Part shown: positions 1 to 7,546 of the stretch, in pieces | Layout of the letters: the number at the start of each line of letters is the position of its first letter | How positions within the stretch are numbered: position 1 is the first letter of the stretch | Virus record (IMG/VR): IMGVR_UViG_3300023487_000022 | Length of the DNA: 11,441 nucleotides | Reading direction: 5' to 3' (one strand) | Origin: a virus | Lineage: Duplodnaviria > Heunggongvirae > Uroviricota > Caudoviricetes | Position numbers and translations under genes: made by a program | Notes under the pieces: generated by a model | Seen by the model: the letters and a program-made list of their open reading frames with translations, nothing else | The model's database searches: none | Told to the model about the DNA's origin: nothing

Positions 1-40
1 TGATGTCACGCTGAAAATGCCGGCCTTTGAATGGGTTCAT
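1..40 (-). CDS. tnpA: IS26 transposase, first 13 codons only (cut by window edge)
   Basis: ATG at 40..38 on the minus strand, reading MNPFKGRHFQRDI, 38 bp inside the terminal IR. Confidence 0.85.
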   Translation of the reverse strand, partial: MNPFKGRHFQRDI

Positions 41-103
41 GTGCAGCTCCATCAGTAAAAGGGGATGATAAGTTTATCACCACCGACTATTTGCAACAGT
101 GCC
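1..103 (-). mobile_element. IS26 (IS6 family) terminal 103 bp; the element continues beyond the window start
   Basis: Reverse complement of 90-103 is GGCACTGTTGCAAA, the IS26 terminal inverted repeat. Reverse complement of 1-40 is ATGAACCCATTCAAAGGCCGGCATTTTCAGCGTGACATCA, the start of the IS26 transposase gene. Recognised from memory of the IS26 sequence, not from a search. Confidence 0.88.
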
Positions 104-159: not shown

Positions 160-226
160 CCGTAAACAAATTGTTTTCTCAATGGCGTAAATAATACCAG
201 TGTAAAAACGGCTACAAAGCATATTG
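160..226 (-). promoter_or_regulatory. Y-type conserved upstream module, copy 1, with AAACAAATTGTTTT dyad at 164-177
   Basis: About 80% identical by eye over about 67 bp to 651-717; both copies lie immediately upstream (minus strand) of a start codon. Confidence 0.55.
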
Positions 227-1000: not shown

Positions 1001-1032
1001 CTCTTCATCCTCACTTCGTTTATATAACGTCT

Positions 1033-1088
1033 AAACATGTTGTTTACTTATTGGTGTTATTGTCGCAATAAGACAAAGGAGAAAAAGG
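1033..1088 (-). promoter_or_regulatory. X-type conserved upstream module, copy 1 (AAACATGTTGTTTA dyad 1033-1046; TTATTG-TCG-CAATAA dyad 1057-1071)
   Basis: About 80% identical by eye to 3801-3856; both lie immediately upstream of minus-strand start codons (1000 and 3788). Confidence 0.55.
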
Positions 1089-1387
1089 ATTTTATGTCGT
1101 GAAAGCCAGGCTGGGCAGTGAATATCCGGGAACGACACGGGAACCAGTATTTACGATATTCTGCTCTACGCGCGCCGCAGGGCTGGTGGGCAGAATTTTC
1201 TTCTCCCCGAAAACCTACTGAAATCGCTTGAGACCCGAGGATGGTCTGGCAGAATGGAGTTCAGCAGCTGCACGAGAGGGAACGACACTCCCTCGCGATT
1301 TTCAGGCGAGCGAAGAGCAAGGCGCACTCCCGAAGATTTCCCGCACTGCTCCCGCAGTCGTCCCTCGCTCTGTACCGGGATGTACCC

Positions 1388-1513
1388 GTTTCCCGACCGG
1401 CAGCCAGCCTTTTCCCGGTTCGTATAGCGGGATTCCCACCGTTTCCCTGAAAAACCTCCAGCCTTTTCCCTGCGGCGACGTTCCCGTTCCTGAAAAGGGA
1501 CATGGCTTTTCCC
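1388..1513. repeat. Array of about 7 degenerate direct repeats with TTTCCC core, roughly 21 bp period
   Basis: TTCCC cores at about 1390, 1412, 1433, 1443, 1466, 1481 and 1509. Three copies share AGCCTTTTCCC-G (1407-1418, 1460-1471, 1504-1516). Confidence 0.5.
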
Positions 1514-2588
1514 TGGATGGCTCGAAGGCTGACCGAAGGGGTGGATAGGGACGTTACGGGGGATGAAAACTATGGCTTGAATTTATACGAAGAAAGTGGC
1601 GATACCCCTCCTTCCCTTCCCACTTATACCTCCCACGAATTTTCTCTCTTATGTGGGCATAAACCTTCTCTCTGATAACGCTCAATACGGCGACTATTCC
1701 TGTGGGTGAAATGGGTGGTTTGTTCTTTCTACCGGCATATGTGGTTTCGTTCTTCTTGAGGTGGTTCTTCTCTGTGTTTTCGTCAGGGTTGTTCTCGTTG
1801 TTTTGGTGATTGTTCTTCTCTGTGTATGGAGTAATGGCAGGTGGGCGATTCCTTTCGTTATTGTATTTGAGTTGTTTGTCTTGAGAGCGTGAAAGGCTTT
1901 TGTGGTTATTTGTGTATTGAGTAATGGCGTTTCCCCGCGAATGTTCTGTTTCGTGTCTTTGGGGATTGAGGGAGTCCTTGCGGTAACAGGCTTCGTTAGA
2001 GTTTCAGTGGTTCTGGTGTTTATTCGCTGTTTGGGGAATGGCGTGTAGTGGGTATCGCATGTATGAATGTTTCGAGTTGCCTGTGAAAGTTAGGTTGGTT
2101 GTCCGGTAGCCTGGGAAGAAGAGGTGGGTCTTTTCAGTAGCCTGCCATAAAGAGGTTGGTTGTTTTTGGGAATGTGGGTAATGGCGTCTCTGGGTTTCCT
2201 GTGGGTGTGGTTAGCTTGTTTTCTTGTGTCTGAAAACAACTTGTTTAGATGTCCAATATAACGCAACGGGAGCGCTTCTGAGCGTGTCTGTTTTTGGGTG
2301 GTATCACGAGTCGTTTTTGACGTTTTGGTCGCAGGGAGATGGATTCTGGTACGCTGGATTTGGGTATAAGAGATGGCGTGCGAAAACATCAACTTTTTAG
2401 ACCAAATCAGGGGAAAGCGTTGACTTTACGTTGATGTGTTATTTATTTGTTTTCTTATGGGTGTAATTGGCTTAAATGCCTTGTCACGCCTGGGATTGAG
2501 TGGGGTAGGGTGGTGGGGAAAGTGGCGATCAACGGACTCTTATAGAAATCCTCAATTTGTGACCGCCAATATCAACGAGCTGCAGCCG

Positions 2589-3158
2589 TTAGTTGTTCAG
2601 ATAGGCATCCGGAACGCGCACATAAAAGTTTCTTTCGCCGGTCAGTTCCAGAGTAACGTTTATGTCGTTGCCGTTATCCAGCGTAGCCGTCGCTTTATAG
2701 AACTTGTCCGTCACCTTGTCCTGAATTGTCACCTTCATACATTTCGGCGCTGTGGTTCCGTTATTCTCTTTCAGAATGGTCGTTACGAGAGGACAAGCCG
2801 CTTCTTCAAGAGCAACCTCTTCCTGGTGTGGGATACCGATGAAGATGTTACCAGCAAGCAACGCGACGATTACGATAAAAGGAAGTCGACTGCCTTTTGT
2901 AACGGTGGCACGTTTCCAGAGATAGACCGGAAGGAGAAATACTCCCCACAGGATGGCCGGTGGTTCATACCCTGCATCAGACAATGCCATTCTGTCAGCC
3001 ACCAGAAAGCCGAGTCCAGCGACTCCACCTATCACTATTGCATAATTCAAATACTCATCTGGCGGTGCTCCAAAGAAGAGAGGCAGTAAAGCTAGAAGCC
3101 ACGCATAAGCATTATTCAGAGGTTTTGTTTGTTGGTTCTGGGTTTCCATCACATCCAT
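2589..3158 (-). CDS. Hypothetical membrane protein (189 aa), hydrophobic N-terminal half and soluble C-terminal domain
   Basis: ORF track; hydrophobic stretches (WLLALLPLFF, AIVIGGVAGLGFLV, ILWGVFLLPVYLW, FIVIVALLAGNIFIGI). Start uncertain between ATG 3158 and ATG 3149; RBS weak. The overlapping plus-strand ORF 2436-3089 has a non-protein-like composition. Confidence 0.65.
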   Translation of the reverse strand: MDVMETQNQQTKPLNNAYAWLLALLPLFFGAPPDEYLNYAIVIGGVAGLGFLVADRMALSDAGYEPPAILWGVFLLPVYLWKRATVTKGSRLPFIVIVALLAGNIFIGIPHQEEVALEEAACPLVTTILKENNGTTAPKCMKVTIQDKVTDKFYKATATLDNGNDINVTLELTGERNFYVRVPDAYLNN

Positions 3159-3234: not shown

Positions 3235-3555
3235 TCACCATTCCCATGCAGGTAGCCCATCCACCAGCTCGGCGTCGCAATCGAAGTGAACCACGTCAAA
3301 GCCGTCATCCAGTATGGTCTGTATGTTGGAGATCGCCTCTTGGGAAATGCCGTACTCACGCAGTTCTTCCTTCCAGTCATTCCCTCGCATTCCAGCACGA
3401 ACAATCCAGCCGTACTGTGTACCGTGTACCCAATTCAACCCGCGATCAGTAAGTGGGTCGAAGCAGGCAATGGGTAGCCGTTCTGAATCCGCTGCCGTTA
3501 CGTGGGCGGTGCTGATCACCGCCGTCTTATACGATTCGGTGATTTTCAGCATCAT
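3235..3555 (-). CDS. Hypothetical acidic protein (106 aa), translationally coupled to the upstream gene
   Basis: ATG at 3555 overlaps the TGA of the 3552-3788 CDS (ATGA overlap); AAGGAG upstream. About 18 D/E versus 8 K/R by hand count. Confidence 0.72.
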   Translation of the reverse strand: MMLKITESYKTAVISTAHVTAADSERLPIACFDPLTDRGLNWVHGTQYGWIVRAGMRGNDWKEELREYGISQEAISNIQTILDDGFDVVHFDCDAELVDGLPAWEW

Positions 3556-3788
3556 GCCTTCTCCTTTGGAAACAGAATGTTGGCCGTGTCAGAAATGACA
3601 TCCCAATTCACGCCGACGCTGGTGTCATGGCACTCTTTGATTTTTCGCAAAACCTGAACGCACTGTTCGTCAGTCAGGTCTGGTCGCACTTCACCTACAT
3701 CTTCCTTGTGCCACATCACCATCAGCAGCGGCTCGTCTTCTGGGTAGTTCTCCAGCTTTTCGATGATGTCTTTTGCGGTTCCGAACAT
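3552..3788 (-). CDS. Hypothetical small acidic protein (78 aa)
   Basis: ATG at 3788 with AAGGAG 6 nt upstream; the track start at 3806 is a TTG that contains this SD. Product MFGTAKDIIEKLENYPEDEPLL... Confidence 0.72.
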   Translation of the reverse strand: MFGTAKDIIEKLENYPEDEPLLMVMWHKEDVGEVRPDLTDEQCVQVLRKIKECHDTSVGVNWDVISDTANILFPKEKA

Positions 3789-3800
3789 GATCAACTCCTT

Positions 3801-3856
3801 AAACAATTTATTTTCTTATTTGTGTTATTATCTCAAATAACAAAAGGTAGAAAACA
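3801..3856 (-). promoter_or_regulatory. X-type conserved upstream module, copy 2 (GTTATT-N6-AATAAC dyad 3824-3841; AAACA/TGTTT-like dyads at 3801-3814 and 3851-3865)
   Basis: Homologous to 1033-1088; lies between the 3874-4140 and 3552-3788 genes. Confidence 0.55.
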
Positions 3857-3873
3857 AAATGTTTAAGGGATGA

Positions 3874-4140: not shown

Positions 4141-4228
4141 TGCTCGCCTCGCAATACTGTACATATAAACAGTATTATTTATTACGGTACTGGTCAACTT
4201 TACGGGTTAATTGAATAACAAGATGGTG

Positions 4229-4243
4229 AAAACAATTTGTTTT
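4229..4243. promoter_or_regulatory. Perfect 15 bp palindrome AAAACAATTTGTTTT in a divergent promoter region; candidate operator
   Basis: Seven-base arms around a central T, between the minus-strand start at 4140 and the plus-strand start at 4328; the strongest copy of the recurring AAACA-N-TGTTT dyad. Confidence 0.5.
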
Positions 4244-4327
4244 GGCACTTGAGATTTTGCAAATCGCACCTACATGGAAAACGGCAATTTTTGAAACCTG
4301 ATTTGACCCATGTGAAAGGAGGAAACG

Positions 4328-4531: not shown

Positions 4532-4558
4532 TTTCACCATCTATAAAACAAATTGTTT

Positions 4559-4579
4559 AAGGCCACAACTAGTGGCCTT
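4559..4579. terminator. GC-rich inverted repeat AAGGCCAC-AACTA-GTGGCCTT between convergent genes; possible bidirectional terminator
   Basis: 8 bp stem, 5 nt loop. The T-rich tract on the minus-strand side is offset by about 6 nt, so terminator function is uncertain. Confidence 0.4.
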
Positions 4580-5773: not shown

Positions 5774-6505
5774 TCAGCGGGGACTTAACAAAAGCGGAGA
5801 CTCGCTCGACAAGCCGGCCAGTGAACCAACATCCCCCCAATTCTGGTGTGTCAGCGCCCCGATACTTACCACTCCAGGCAGCACTTCTTTGTGGTTGTGG
5901 TAGTGCCCGGACAACAATAAACGGAAGCCGATATCTTTCAGTTCCTGTGCGTCGATGCCGACATCGGGCATGGTGGGGATCGCTTTGTTGATTGAGGTAT
6001 GTACAACAACATCATGGTTGTCACCATCCAGCCCGGAACGCAGCGTTTTGAGATCGCTGATAAGTTCTGCGTAGTTATTACGCCAGCTAATCAGATGGAC
6101 GGTTACGTCGCCCATTTTGATGGAATGAGGACGTTTGCCGCAGACGATTTCCACACCGATTGAGCGCAGAGAGGCTGCTGCATTGGCGCTGTATACGGAA
6201 TCGTTGGTTTCGAGGTCGTGGTTGCCAGCCAGCATTACCACCTTGAGACCCAACTCTTTGATGATCCACTCGTAAGTTTCGGTCACGAAATGCAGAACGG
6301 AAGGTGATATAGCACCGCGAACATGGAAGGTATCACCAGCTACCAGCATGTTCTTACAGCCAGCAGCTTTCATCGCTTTGGCCGCCTCCTTCGTAGCGTC
6401 CAGTTGGATCTCCAGCCGAGAGTTAAGCCCGTCAGCGTTTGTTGTCGCAAAAGCATCCCAACGATGATAATGGGGATCTGATATTACCCCGTATGGCAAT
6501 GTCAT
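5774..6505 (-). CDS. Calcineurin-like metallophosphoesterase (243 aa)
   Basis: ATG at 6505 with AAGGA upstream. Ordered motifs ISDPHYH, GDTFHVRG, GNHD and GHYHNH match the metallophosphatase signature (D-x-H, GD-x-x-D/H-R-G, GNH[DE], GH-x-H). Confidence 0.75.
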   Translation of the reverse strand: MTLPYGVISDPHYHRWDAFATTNADGLNSRLEIQLDATKEAAKAMKAAGCKNMLVAGDTFHVRGAISPSVLHFVTETYEWIIKELGLKVVMLAGNHDLETNDSVYSANAAASLRSIGVEIVCGKRPHSIKMGDVTVHLISWRNNYAELISDLKTLRSGLDGDNHDVVVHTSINKAIPTMPDVGIDAQELKDIGFRLLLSGHYHNHKEVLPGVVSIGALTHQNWGDVGSLAGLSSESPLLLSPR

Positions 6506-6848
6506 GTGTCTTTTCCTTTGTGGTTATTTTGATACAAATTCTAAGCGTGCATAAGAGGCGTACAACCCAGACAACACGGCACACAAAAGAATATAAAGGC
6601 ACATGATAATAACAAAAAAATAAGTAAGTAAATACCTATCAGATAGGGCAGCAACGATTTCTAAACGTCACAAGCAATTTTATGAGAGCAGTCATTTACT
6701 GATGACAAGAAATGAAAAAGGAGAACGGACGGTGAAGTTGTGAGATGACATTTACGGCGTTTGCGTGCGTCGTCTTCAAACGCATCCGTCGGCCACAGTT
6801 TCTGCTCTTGAATAAAATTCACTCATGCATTAATCCCTAAAGCTCTCA

Positions 6849-6875
6849 GTGTCTTTCTAAGACACCATATTTTAT
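6849..6875 (+). terminator. Hairpin GTGTCTT-TCT-AAGACAC followed by CATATTTTAT; candidate plus-strand rho-independent terminator
   Basis: Perfect 7 bp stem, 3 nt loop, T-rich tail on the plus strand only; lies just after a 31-codon plus-strand ORF (6745-6840). Confidence 0.45.
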
Positions 6876-6901
6876 GCCCGGTAAAAAGCATGAGTTTGCC
6901 T

Positions 6902-7546
6902 TTAAAACGTCTCTGAGGGCTTCTGACGCGCTCTGCTAATGTCTATTACCCCAGCTTTTGGACGAGGGTCTACAAGATTCAACTCTTCAGCACTGTGATA
7001 CTCCGTGTCGAACTCCCGATCGACATGGCGAATGTAAATGGCTGTCAGAAGGCTGTTATCATTCAGAAAGTGTCCGTAAGATTTGCGAATTACTTCGCCA
7101 ACCTTCTCAATCTTCTCTCCGCCCATGCAGAGATGGTTAAATCGGCTGTGTTTCCGCAGCATTTCATCCACCGGGCCTGAGTAGACCTTATCAACTCTCC
7201 CGAACCGGATGATATTTCCGGTATCAGCTTCAACCAGACAAACGAGTTTGCCAGGTTCGACACGATCTCGCCAAGTGACACCAGAGCGCAGTGTGTTGAA
7301 GTAGGGAGCATCCAATCCGATGATCGGTTTACGAAATGCTAGTAGTGGCACGTAACGTATGCAGCTGTTTAGGTGGAAATGCGCACCGGCGTCGTGGAGT
7401 TTAAGCCGGGTTTCGTTAATCGGGCATTTCGAAGCAATGCCGCAAAGGTCGCAGAGCAACTTCTGTTTGTTCAGACTAGTGTTTGATTCAATGGTGTAGG
7501 AGCCATCTTCAAGACGGCGAACCCAGCGCGTGCGTTTAAGATCCAT
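6902..7546 (-). CDS. Hypothetical protein (214 aa) with a CDLCGIASKC Cys cluster
   Basis: ORF track, ATG at 7546, weak RBS. No family recognised. Confidence 0.6.
   Translation of the reverse strand: MDLKRTRWVRRLEDGSYTIESNTSLNKQKLLCDLCGIASKCPINETRLKLHDAGAHFHLNSCIRYVPLLAFRKPIIGLDAPYFNTLRSGVTWRDRVEPGKLVCLVEADTGNIIRFGRVDKVYSGPVDEMLRKHSRFNHLCMGGEKIEKVGEVIRKSYGHFLNDNSLLTAIYIRHVDREFDTEYHSAEELNLVDPRPKAGVIDISRARQKPSETF

What the first reader, a model, noticed from the sequence alone, without database searches (positions are those of the whole stretch)
1690..2260. 570 bp strongly GT-skewed, ORF-free segment with long-period degenerate repeats
The plus strand is dominated by G and T (for example 1741-1800). 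Motifs recur at about 100-140 bp intervals: TGTGTAT(G/T)GAGTAATGGC at 1812 and 1908, and GG(G/T)(A/G)ATGGCG at 2033 and 2181. The segment ends with an AAACA-N-TGTTT dyad at 2233-2247. There is no convincing ORF on either strand. Such strand asymmetry is unusual for enterobacterial coding DNA and suggests a structured non-coding RNA, a strand-specific ssDNA element, or a binding array.
Basis: seen in the sequence. Interest (0 to 1): 0.55.

Follow-up and report, generated by a model that had tools for sequence, protein, structure and literature searches.

The report
Conserved GT-skewed non-coding spacer, SSU5 phage-plasmids
This is a real, repeat-built, non-coding stretch kept by an entire family of SSU5-type phage-plasmids; it most likely acts as a one-way barrier to transcription between swappable cargo genes and the phage's early genes, but that function is inferred, not shown.

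Summary
Window 1690-2260 is 71.6% G+T, against 49% elsewhere (z = 9.6), and the skew runs on to about 2560. The homologous stretch is the strongest compositional outlier in the 100 kb of the SSU5 genome examined.

The window is an SSU5/pHCM2-family phage-plasmid. The stretch occurs in about 850 plasmid records and 12 phages. It spans 25 lineages at 58-84% identity, always in the same orientation and always 65-72% G+T.

It is non-coding. No ORF is shared between clades, most indels are not multiples of three, substitutions fall evenly across codon positions, and there are no Pfam or Rfam hits.

The core shows no excess RNA structure on either strand. It is built from 4-5 same-orientation units ending in G(G/T)AATGGC(G/A) and a 31-bp tandem repeat of variable copy number. 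The dyad is one copy of a promoter/operator-like palindrome dispersed through the genome.

Nearly all family genes lie on the other strand, so read-through RNA here would be C-rich, G-poor, start-codon-poor and unstructured. That is a textbook Rho loading zone. In published Cyrano lysogen RNA-seq, the upstream gene reads 45-587 FPKM and the spacer 0-14.

Best reading: a polar terminator or insulator (confidence about 0.37). A DNA-level protein-binding site remains a serious rival.

The parts
1690..2560 (.). Full GT-skewed (+ strand) / CA-rich (- strand) non-coding zone; the finding's 1690-2260 is its most extreme part
   Evidence: Conserved composition in all clades.
1812..1839 (+). Repeat unit 1 (GTTCTTCTCTGTGTATGGAGTAATGGCA)
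   Evidence: Among the most conserved islands. A recombination breakpoint lies here.
1902..1929 (+). Repeat unit 2 (...TGTGTATTGAGTAATGGCG)
2016..2043 (+). Repeat unit 3 (...CTGTTTGGGGAATGGCG)
2159..2186 (+). Repeat unit 4 (...GGAATGTGGGTAATGGCG)
2070..2163 (+). Three tandem 30-31-bp repeats (consensus CGGTAGCCTGGGAAGAAGAGGTGGGTCTTTT); GTWGCCTG occurs 0-3 times across homologues
   Evidence: (an extra tandem copy in L024). The second recombination breakpoint lies here.
2231..2249 (.). Palindrome TGAAAACAACTTGTTTAGA: an orphan copy of the family's dispersed promoter/operator-like dyad AAACAAnnTGTTTA
2445..2472 (-). Degenerate copy (M3) of the dispersed promoter/5'-leader module (AATTACACCCATAAGAAAACAA...), lacking a good -10 and the right half of the dyad
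   Evidence: nhmmer E = 1.7e-4; conserved in all clades
2365..2544 (.). Conserved right-hand block. It is bounded by the inverted repeat TATAAGAG (2365-2372) / CTCTTATA (2537-2544). It contains the hairpin CATCAAC...GTTGAC (2387-2424) and clustered CGTTGAY boxes (2418, 2429, 2528, 2571).
2523..2568 (-). 9-bp stem (TGGCGGTCA / TGATCGCCA on the - strand, with one G.U) just downstream, in the sense direction, of the upstream gene's stop codon; a C-rich, variable tract follows
   Evidence: The C-rich tract at 2470-2523 is variable in sequence but constant in composition.
1604..1625 (+). C-rich arm (ACCCCTCCTTCCCTTCCCAC). It is complementary to the G-rich arm at 2495-2517 and flanked by the 12-mer GAAAGTGGCGAT (1592-1603, repeated at 2518-2529).
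   Evidence: family D11; duplex -44.9 kcal/mol against shuffles -32.4 +/- 5.0
2495..2529 (+). G-rich arm plus the second copy of GAAAGTGGCGAT
1032..1072 (-). Full promoter/operator-like module (M1) for the leftward gene 782-1000; it marks the downstream end of the unannotated gap
   Evidence: nhmmer E = 3.8e-8
2589..3158 (-). Upstream (sense-direction) accessory gene of unknown function (phrog_12486). This position holds a different gene in each clade.

Best explanation
The segment is the core of a conserved non-coding spacer of about 1.1-1.6 kb that is specific to SSU5/pHCM2-type phage-plasmids. It lies between a hypervariable accessory-gene slot, on the right in window coordinates, and a conserved cluster of small early genes on the left, several of which carry their own promoter/operator-like module.

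Almost every gene of these elements is read on the window's minus strand. Any RNA polymerase leaving the accessory gene therefore transcribes the spacer into RNA that is 32% C and 14% G. That RNA is almost free of start codons, untranslated and essentially unstructured.

Proposed mechanism (inferred):
1. The RNA passes a conserved stem just after the stop codon.
2. Rho factor loads on the C-rich tract and on the following array of CA-rich repeat units.
3. Rho releases the polymerase, and the unprotected tail is degraded.

The spacer would thus act as an orientation-specific terminator or insulator. It would keep transcription of whatever cargo gene sits upstream from running into the early genes while the element lives as a plasmid. 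Embedded promoter/operator-like elements (the dyad and module M3) suggest that the barrier also belongs to the repressor-controlled regulatory landscape.

Shown: conservation, non-coding status, strand bias, repeats, lack of structure, and the transcript drop in one family member. Inferred: the involvement of Rho and the insulator role.
For: 1. Gene orientation. SSU5 genes 1-118 lie, with few exceptions, on one strand, which corresponds to the window's minus strand.
2. Rho-substrate composition. On the minus strand, 78-nt windows have C/G >= 2 almost continuously from 1689 to 2572. The mean is 2.30, against 0.99 elsewhere, and only 1.9% of outside windows reach 2. YC dinucleotides run at 15.6 per 100 nt against 10.7.
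3. Untranslated. Only 13 start triplets occur in 861 nt across all frames. No ORF is conserved.
4. Unstructured. The minus-strand RNA folds at -70.7 kcal/mol over 571 nt, with z = -0.88.
5. No terminator-like site is predicted on the minus strand, and no sigma-70-like promoter within 1690-2560.
6. Composition is kept while sequence turns over.
   - 25 lineages at 64-84% identity to the window all hold 65-72% G+T.
   - G<->T changes make up 31% of differences in the core, against 9% in the left block.
   - The tract just after the stem is variable in sequence but always C-rich.
7. Position. The right edge of homology, about 2580, abuts a different gene in each clade.
8. In vivo data. In E. coli LF82 carrying Cyrano (PMC9928086, S1 Table, log2(FPKM+5), 10 samples):
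   - the upstream gene CYRAN_102 reads 45-587 FPKM;
   - CYRAN_103, a spurious ORF on the CA-rich strand that begins 111 nt after the CYRAN_102 stop codon, reads 0-14 FPKM, and 0 in LB.
9. Retention. None of 844 plasmid records joins the two flanks without the spacer.
Against: - A Rho loading site needs roughly 80-100 nt, not 900.
- Composition alone does not explain the sharply conserved 10-28-nt units, their conserved spacings (52/41/135/142, 93/135/144, 90/113/135) or the 31-bp tandem repeat.
- In Cyrano the transcript is already gone before most of the GT core is reached. The core may therefore be redundant for termination, or do something else.
- The RNA-seq covers one family member in the lysogenic state only. 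The table gives per-gene counts, and I could not confirm whether they were counted strand-specifically.
- The element is retained in pJN2-26, where the neighbouring gene points away from it.
- Rho dependence was not tested.
Confidence: 0.37

Rival explanations
1. A DNA-level cis-acting site. The repeats form an array of binding sites for a phage or host protein. The resulting nucleoprotein complex could serve lytic replication, packaging, partition-like positioning or repressor looping. The strand skew would simply follow from same-orientation G/T-rich sites.
For: - Four to five same-orientation units have an invariant 10-nt core, and their spacings are conserved across clades that are only 58-70% identical.
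- One spacing differs between clades by 21-22 bp, about two helical turns.
- The 31-bp tandem repeat varies in copy number, as iterons do.
- Four CGTTGAY boxes cluster within 160 bp, two of them 11 bp apart.
- Watson-Crick inverted repeats fit equally well on either strand.
- The spacer is never deleted in 844 records.
- It is architecturally like the untranslated, repeat-rich injection-stop region of T5.
Against: - The region has no DnaA boxes, and no origin-like unwinding element was identified (not specifically tested).
- The plasmid RepA iterons are unrelated and lie 30 kb away.
- The terminase, replication and partition genes are all distant.
- The variable spacers between motifs also keep the skew, which binding sites alone do not explain.
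- No candidate binding protein was identified; all neighbours have unknown function.
Confidence: 0.25
2. A G/U-rich non-coding RNA transcribed from the + strand, antisense to the general direction of transcription. It could act in the lytic cycle or against host C/A-rich mRNA elements, in the manner of the G/U-rich seed of GcvB.
For: - Predicted helices in the right block are 94% paired on the + strand against 75% on the mirrored - strand.
- G>C and T>A is the direction expected for the non-template strand of a transcribed region (established knowledge).
- The per-gene table gives no separate measure of + strand RNA over the spacer.
Against: - No promoter-like site points rightward at the left boundary, and the single terminator-like + strand site (2272-2285) is not conserved as a hairpin.
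- The core fold z-score is 0.22, and there is no Rfam hit.
- The + strand advantage in pairing is expected for any G/U-rich sequence when the structure was predicted on that same strand.
- Compensatory changes are few, and mismatched intermediates occur in both directions.
- GGA motifs are not enriched: 14 observed against 14.8 expected.
Confidence: 0.1
3. A zone in which the + strand is often exposed as single-stranded DNA, through an R-loop or D-loop, for example a transcription-primed lytic origin. The G+T richness would then be partly a deamination footprint (C->T, A->G), as on the heavy strand of mitochondrial DNA.
For: - The skew has the sign and the G+T / A+C pairing known for strands exposed as single strands (established knowledge of mitochondrial strand asymmetry).
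- The boundaries are sharp, and complementary C-rich and G-rich arms flank the zone.
- The family encodes a UvsW-like helicase, an RNase H, a recombinase and an SSB, but no recognised origin-binding initiator was seen for the lytic replisome.
Against: - No promoter was found to drive an R-loop.
- Invariant sequence motifs inside the zone indicate selection rather than mutation pressure.
- A skew of 0.4-0.5 is far above known transcription- or replication-associated skews in bacteria.
- There is no direct evidence for an origin here.
Confidence: 0.1
4. A homologous-recombination anchor. A conserved, RecA-friendly G/T-rich block next to the cargo slot would promote cassette exchange between family members.
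For: - The window's own spacer is a recombinant: SSU5-like at 1479-1800 and 2156-2590, Cyrano-like at 1827-2150.
- It borders the hypervariable slot.
- A Chi site at 1182 is conserved in position in 6 of 11 homologues.
- RecA prefers G/T-rich DNA (established knowledge).
Against: - Any conserved block shows such crossovers, and the breakpoints simply fall where identity is highest.
- Chi lies 500 bp outside the skewed zone and is not universal.
- This reading does not explain motif spacing or strand specificity.
Confidence: 0.06
5. A decayed or frameshifted protein-coding gene, or a set of small hydrophobic peptides.
For: - G/T-rich frames translate into hydrophobic runs, and A/C-rich frames stay open for 130-150 codons.
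- Some records annotate ORFs here: SSU5_108, CYRAN_103, QBP27487.
Against: - The annotated ORFs lie on different strands and in different frames in different records.
- No ORF is shared between clades.
- Mismatches across codon positions are even: 8/10/10, 11/10/11 and 12/10/16.
- 92 of 117 pairwise indel runs are not multiples of three.
- No Pfam hits.
- The open frames follow from the lack of T and G and have no start codons.
Confidence: 0.02

Closest known systems
Rho-dependent terminators with C-rich, G-poor rut sites (for example lambda tR1 rutA/rutB)
   Same: The sense RNA is untranslated, C-rich, G-poor and unstructured, and lies directly downstream of a transcribed gene. The transcript disappears there in vivo in one family member. 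A stem upstream could serve as the processed, protected 3' end.
   Different: It is about ten times longer than a usual rut region. It is built from conserved repeat units with fixed spacing, and it is conserved as sequence across a whole family of mobile elements. Rho dependence is untested.
Untranslated repeat region 3 / injection stop signal of phage T5
   Same: Both are conserved untranslated regions of more than 1 kb in large siphovirus genomes. Both are packed with dispersed same-orientation repeats, inverted repeats and palindromes, lie next to poorly conserved coding DNA, and have no demonstrated mechanism.
   Different: There is no sequence similarity. SSU5 has no A1, A2 or dmp homologues. 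The spacer has no DnaA boxes. T5's region has no G+T skew. The SSU5 element is not at a known genome end.
Iteron arrays of plasmid and phage replication origins (P1 oriR/incA; the RepA iterons of pHCM2/SSU5)
   Same: Direct repeats in one orientation, including a tandem set at roughly three helical turns whose copy number varies.
   Different: The motifs are unrelated to the family's own RepA iterons. There is no adjacent initiator gene and there are no DnaA boxes, and no AT-rich unwinding element was identified (not specifically tested). Most units are irregularly spaced at 41-144 bp.
Dispersed operator sets of plasmid prophages (the P1 C1 operators)
   Same: The dyad in the finding belongs to a palindrome scattered over about 20 intergenic sites, usually between a -10-like hexamer and a start codon.
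   Different: The binding protein is unknown. The copy inside the spacer is an orphan with no gene behind it. This accounts for the dyad only, not for the skewed array.

Membership tests
Rho-dependent terminator / rut region | At least ~80 nt of C-rich, G-poor RNA in the direction of transcription | tested here: met
   Minus strand: C 31.5%, G 13.9%. C/G >= 2 in 78-nt windows nearly continuously over 1689-2572.
Rho-dependent terminator / rut region | The RNA is untranslated and weakly structured | tested here: met
   No conserved ORF. 13 start triplets in 861 nt. MFE -70.7 kcal/mol over 571 nt.
Rho-dependent terminator / rut region | Transcripts from the upstream gene end here in vivo | tested here: inconclusive
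   Cyrano in LF82: CYRAN_102 at 45-587 FPKM against CYRAN_103 at 0-14 FPKM. This is one element, in the lysogenic state, from gene-level counts only.
Rho-dependent terminator / rut region | Read-through rises when Rho is inhibited (bicyclomycin, rho or nusG mutants) | not testable with these tools
   No such data set was found.
Structured non-coding RNA (any Rfam family or a new one) | Match to a curated covariance model | tested here: not met
   No hit at gathering threshold in the window. Only one chance-level hit at E <= 5 in 900-2700.
Structured non-coding RNA (any Rfam family or a new one) | Folding energy better than shuffles, and compensatory base changes | tested here: not met
   Core z-scores are 0.22 and -0.88. 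The tandem-repeat block shows no informative covariation. The right block is inconclusive: 6 pairs carry double changes, but mismatched intermediates occur in 25 lineages.
RfaH ops / JUMPStart element | 12-nt ops GGCGGTAGCGTG on the non-template strand upstream of a long operon | tested here: not met
   The best match, TCCGGTAGCCTG, has 3 mismatches. There are 7 such matches in the window against 6.2 expected. No + strand operon lies downstream.
T5-type injection stop region | Paired DnaA boxes, and the A1/A2 transfer proteins encoded by the phage | tested here: not met
   No TTWTNCACA in 1000-2700. tblastn of T5 A1, A2 and dmp against SSU5 gives no significant hit.
Iteron-type replication origin | Phased iterons next to an initiator gene, with DnaA/IHF sites and an AT-rich unwinding element | tested here: not met
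   Only the 31-bp triplet is phased. The RepA iterons differ and lie elsewhere. There are no DnaA boxes. All neighbours have unknown function.
CsrB/RsmZ-type protein sponge RNA | Many GGA motifs, above the compositional expectation | tested here: not met
   14 observed against 14.8 expected on the + strand.
Non-autonomous transposable element (MITE-like) | Terminal inverted repeats plus a target duplication, and related genomes with an empty site | tested here: not met
   The 12-mer GAAAGTGGCGAT flanks C-rich and G-rich arms. However, 0 of 844 records show the joined empty site. All intact copies have the same orientation and position.
Invertible DNA switch | Both orientations of the segment found among isolates | tested here: not met
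   69 of 73 loci have the G/T-rich strand in the same orientation relative to the outside marker. The other 4 are truncations.
Protein-coding gene or pseudogene | Conserved reading frame, third-position excess of substitutions, indels in multiples of three | tested here: not met

The most novel reading that the evidence does not exclude
The spacer is not mainly a terminator. It is a dedicated strand-asymmetric DNA element in which the G/T-rich strand is displaced as single-stranded DNA. One example would be an R-loop- or D-loop-primed lytic origin, serviced by the family's UvsW-like helicase, RNase H and recombinase, with the repeat units as loading sites. The extreme G+T skew would then be partly a deamination footprint of the kind seen on the mitochondrial heavy strand. 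This would define a new type of phage-plasmid origin and explain why the spacer is never lost.
Probability: 0.12. Interest if true: 0.75.

Novelty: new variant of a known kind. Interest (0 to 1): 0.45.

Why it matters
SSU5/pHCM2-type phage-plasmids are common in clinical Escherichia, Klebsiella, Salmonella, Enterobacter and Citrobacter, and they carry resistance and accessory genes.

This spacer lies at the edge of their main cargo slot, is retained in every intact member examined, and is not annotated in any record I saw. If it is a polar insulator, that would explain how these elements accept arbitrary cargo genes without switching on their own lytic or host-takeover genes. It would also be a compact, orientation-specific terminator module for engineering.

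If it is instead a lytic origin or another DNA site, it fills a gap in the basic map of the family. Either way it is a defined target that can be deleted and tested, and its motifs (GKAATGGCR units; GGCGATCAACNNNNTCTTATAG) are convenient markers for typing the family.

Tried and rejected
- Rfam, at gathering and at permissive thresholds: nothing.
- Sigma-70 promoter and intrinsic-terminator scans: one weak promoter-like site outside the segment and two weak + strand terminator-like sites, all at chance frequency.
- RfaH ops resemblance of CGGTAGCCTG: chance level.
- T5 injection-stop analogy: similar architecture, but no A1/A2/dmp, no DnaA boxes and no matching skew.
- Relation to the plasmid RepA iterons: none.
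- MITE or insertion idea from the flanking 12-mer and C/G-rich arms: no empty site in 844 records.
- Invertible-switch idea: no inverted copies.
- Idea that the CA-rich units are decayed copies of the promoter/leader module: an HMM of 12 modules finds M1, M3 and the dyad but not the units.
- CsrA-sponge idea: GGA is not enriched. Hfq (ARN)n runs: one. Canonical G-quadruplex: one motif at 2492-2518, not conserved in all clades.
- Small-peptide idea (ATG inside every GTAATGGC): the peptides are not conserved, and the Shine-Dalgarno spacing is 2 nt.
- Coding tests: all negative.
- Search for more distant relatives through the left-flank protein: only close family members turned up.
- A loose pattern scan of viral contigs was mostly unspecific.
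- Literature searches for a described RNA or site in SSU5/pHCM2: nothing. One 2026 preprint on phage-plasmid heteroresistance could not be opened.
Full report
**What the window is.**
Window 1500-2700 matches 460 plasmid records by megablast and 858 by sensitive blastn. Almost all are non-mobilizable IncFIB plasmids of about 100-115 kb from Escherichia, Klebsiella, Enterobacter, Salmonella and Citrobacter. It also matches 12 phage records, including Salmonella phage SSU5 (82.7% identity), Escherichia phage Cyrano and Klebsiella phage-plasmids. The window is therefore part of an SSU5/pHCM2-type phage-plasmid. It is 100% identical to E. coli pXJW9B263-1.

**Checking the observation.**
- Window 1690-2260 is 71.6% G+T. 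This is z = 9.6 against all other 571-nt windows.
- The skew begins abruptly at about 1690, after a short C-rich patch, and lasts to about 2560.
- In the 100 kb of the SSU5 genome examined, the homologous stretch is the most extreme compositional outlier (z = 5.4 for 400-nt windows). Its skew is opposite in sign to the rest of the genome.
- The repeats are real. GKAATGGCR occurs four times, all on the + strand, against 0.40 expected.
- These cores end a unit of about 28 nt, GTTCTTCTCCGTGTATTGGGTAATGGCG, present in 3-5 copies in every clade.
Its copy number varies among homologues.

**It is non-coding.**
- Records that annotate ORFs here place them on different strands and in different frames. 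PGAP leaves about 1.5 kb empty in most records.
- No ORF of 45 or more codons is shared between clades.
- For the longest ORF shared by the SSU5 and Klebsiella clades, mismatches are spread evenly across codon positions: 8/10/10, 11/10/11 and 12/10/16.
- 92 of 117 pairwise indel runs are not multiples of three.
- There are no Pfam hits.
- The long open frames on the A/C-rich strand follow from its lack of T and G, and they have no start codons.

**It is conserved, and composition is conserved beyond sequence.**
- In an initial set of 19 homologues, about five clades differ by 58-82% identity.
- With 73 loci from plasmids and IMG/VR, there are 25 lineages at the 95% level. All hold 65-72% G+T, and recurrent unit spacings are 52/41/135/142, 93/135/144 or 90/113/135.
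- Conservation comes in islands: the units, the tandem repeat, the dyad and a right-hand block at 2360-2560. Variable stretches between the islands keep the skew.
- G<->T differences make up 31% of all differences in the core, against 9% in the left block.
- None of 844 plasmid records joins the flanks without the spacer. The only shortened copies are four obvious remnants.
- All intact copies have the same orientation.

**Context.**
Nearly all SSU5 genes (1-118) lie on one strand, which is the window's minus strand. The right edge of homology, about 2580, abuts a different accessory gene in each clade. The left side leads to a conserved run of small genes of unknown function.

- The 16-nt search pattern built on it (up to 3 mismatches) gives 9 matches at 7 sites in the window, against 0.27 expected.
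- A 14-nt core (up to 1 mismatch) is found at about 20 sites in SSU5.
- It is normally preceded by a GATAAT-like hexamer and CAAYAAG, and lies 12-35 nt upstream of a start codon.
- It therefore looks like a dispersed promoter/operator or leader module.

A profile of 12 such modules finds a full copy before the leftward gene (1072-1032, E = 4e-8), a degenerate copy inside the spacer (2472-2445, E = 2e-4) and the dyad. It does not find the GTAATGGC units.

**RNA structure.**
- The core folds no better than shuffles on either strand: z = 0.22 and -0.88.
- Rfam gives nothing.
- Consensus folding of the tandem-repeat block shows no informative covariation.
- The right block contains inverted repeats: TATAAGAG/CTCTTATA, CATCAAC/GTTGAC, and a 9-bp stem after the upstream stop codon. 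A predicted + strand fold is 94% paired.
- That fold was derived from the same G/U-rich alignment. In 25 lineages the variable pairs also show mismatched intermediates in both directions.
- Structure in the right block is therefore possible but unproven, and it is equally compatible with DNA-level inverted repeats.

**Most likely mechanism.**
Read in the direction of the genes, the spacer is 31.5% C and 13.9% G.
- C/G is at least 2 in nearly every 78-nt window from 1689 to 2572. The mean is 2.30, against 0.99 elsewhere.
- YC dinucleotides are enriched.
- Only 13 start triplets occur in 861 nt.
- Folding energy is -0.12 kcal/mol per nt.
- No terminator-like site is predicted on that strand.

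By established knowledge of Rho, such untranslated, C-rich, G-poor, unstructured RNA is the canonical loading substrate.

Published RNA-seq of E. coli LF82, which carries the family member Cyrano, gives an in vivo check (PMC9928086, S1 Table, values as log2(FPKM+5)).
- The gene just upstream in the sense direction, CYRAN_102, reads 45-587 FPKM in ten samples.
- CYRAN_103 reads 0-14 FPKM, and 0 in LB. It is a spurious ORF on the A/C-rich strand that starts 111 nt after the CYRAN_102 stop codon and corresponds to window ~2090-2470.
- The authors classed CYRAN_102 as a moron expressed in the lysogen.

Sense transcription therefore stops, or the RNA is removed, at the entrance of the spacer.

I conclude, with confidence about 0.37, that the spacer is a polar terminator or insulator. 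It would shield the early genes from transcription of whatever cargo occupies the adjacent slot.

**What this does not explain.**
- A terminator does not need 900 nt, an invariant 10-nt motif, fixed spacings or a phased 31-bp tandem repeat.
- In Cyrano the transcript is gone before most of the core is reached.

A DNA-level protein-binding array therefore remains a serious rival (0.25). Candidates are a lytic origin, a packaging site or another nucleoprotein site. It resembles the unexplained untranslated repeat region of T5 in architecture only. Weaker rivals are:
- a + strand G/U-rich RNA (0.10);
- a single-strand-exposed R-loop or D-loop zone (0.10);
- a recombination anchor (0.06), noting that the window's own copy is a recombinant of two clades;
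- decayed coding sequence (0.02).

**Novelty and score.**
I found no description of this element in the literature available to me, and no annotation of it in the records examined. On the best reading it is an unusually long, repeat-built, family-conserved variant of a known kind of signal. Its function is not established. Interest is 0.45: a solid, testable, family-wide feature, but not yet a surprise to a specialist.

Noticed in passing
window 161-176, 652-667, 1030-1072, 3801-3867, 4227-4245, 4546-4561; about 20 sites in SSU5 (L134/L135): A dispersed module sits upstream of many genes: a GATAAT-like hexamer, CAAYAAG, then the palindrome AAACAAnnTGTTTA, 12-35 nt before the start codon. It is a candidate set of repressor-controlled promoters, or a conserved 5' leader, for the whole SSU5 family. 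In two cases the palindrome directly follows a GC-rich hairpin and may double as a terminator tail.
   Followed up: partly
window 1182-1189 (+): A Chi site (GCTGGTGG) lies in the left part of the same unannotated gap. It is found at the equivalent place in 6 of 11 homologues.
   Followed up: no
window 1339-1364 and 1392-1515: The GC-rich left part of the gap holds short repeats: TCCCGCACTCC x2.4 and CCAGCCTTTTCCC x3. ORF 1261-1503 (-) lies at the position of SSU5_109, and PGAP does not annotate it. Whether it is a gene or part of the regulatory spacer is unclear.
   Followed up: no
window 1479-2590: The spacer in this plasmid is a mosaic. It is SSU5-like (87-100% in most 60-nt windows) at 1479-1800 and 2156-2590, and Cyrano-like (71-100%) at 1827-2150. 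The crossovers fall in repeat unit 1 and in the 31-bp tandem repeat.
   Followed up: yes
SSU5 record 6932-6943 (L134); Cyrano L140 1401-1413: The unit core GAGTAATGGCG is identical to the stop/start overlap between head genes 7 and 8 (head-tail adaptor) in both phages. The A/C-rich spacer RNA would be complementary to that translation start. This may be coincidence.
   Followed up: partly
window 1-41 and about 6073-7286; L001 upstream: The window starts inside the end of an IS26 copy and contains an IS3-family element. In the source plasmid, IS1, IS26 and a dha/glycerol operon lie just upstream. This phage-plasmid is therefore heavily loaded with insertions.
   Followed up: no
L012 2244-2713, L013 4001-4288, L144, L150: Large Klebsiella IncFIB/IncU plasmids and two IMG/VR contigs carry only the right-hand part of the spacer (window ~2076/2104/2290 to 2578), in L012 and L013 next to IS/Tn3 elements. 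These are remnants of phage-plasmid DNA.
   Followed up: partly
window 3235-3806: The accessory genes to the right include DUF5983 and DUF1380 proteins. From memory, these families are also seen in plasmid leading regions and cryptic prophages. That would fit an anti-defence or accessory island next to the spacer.
   Followed up: no
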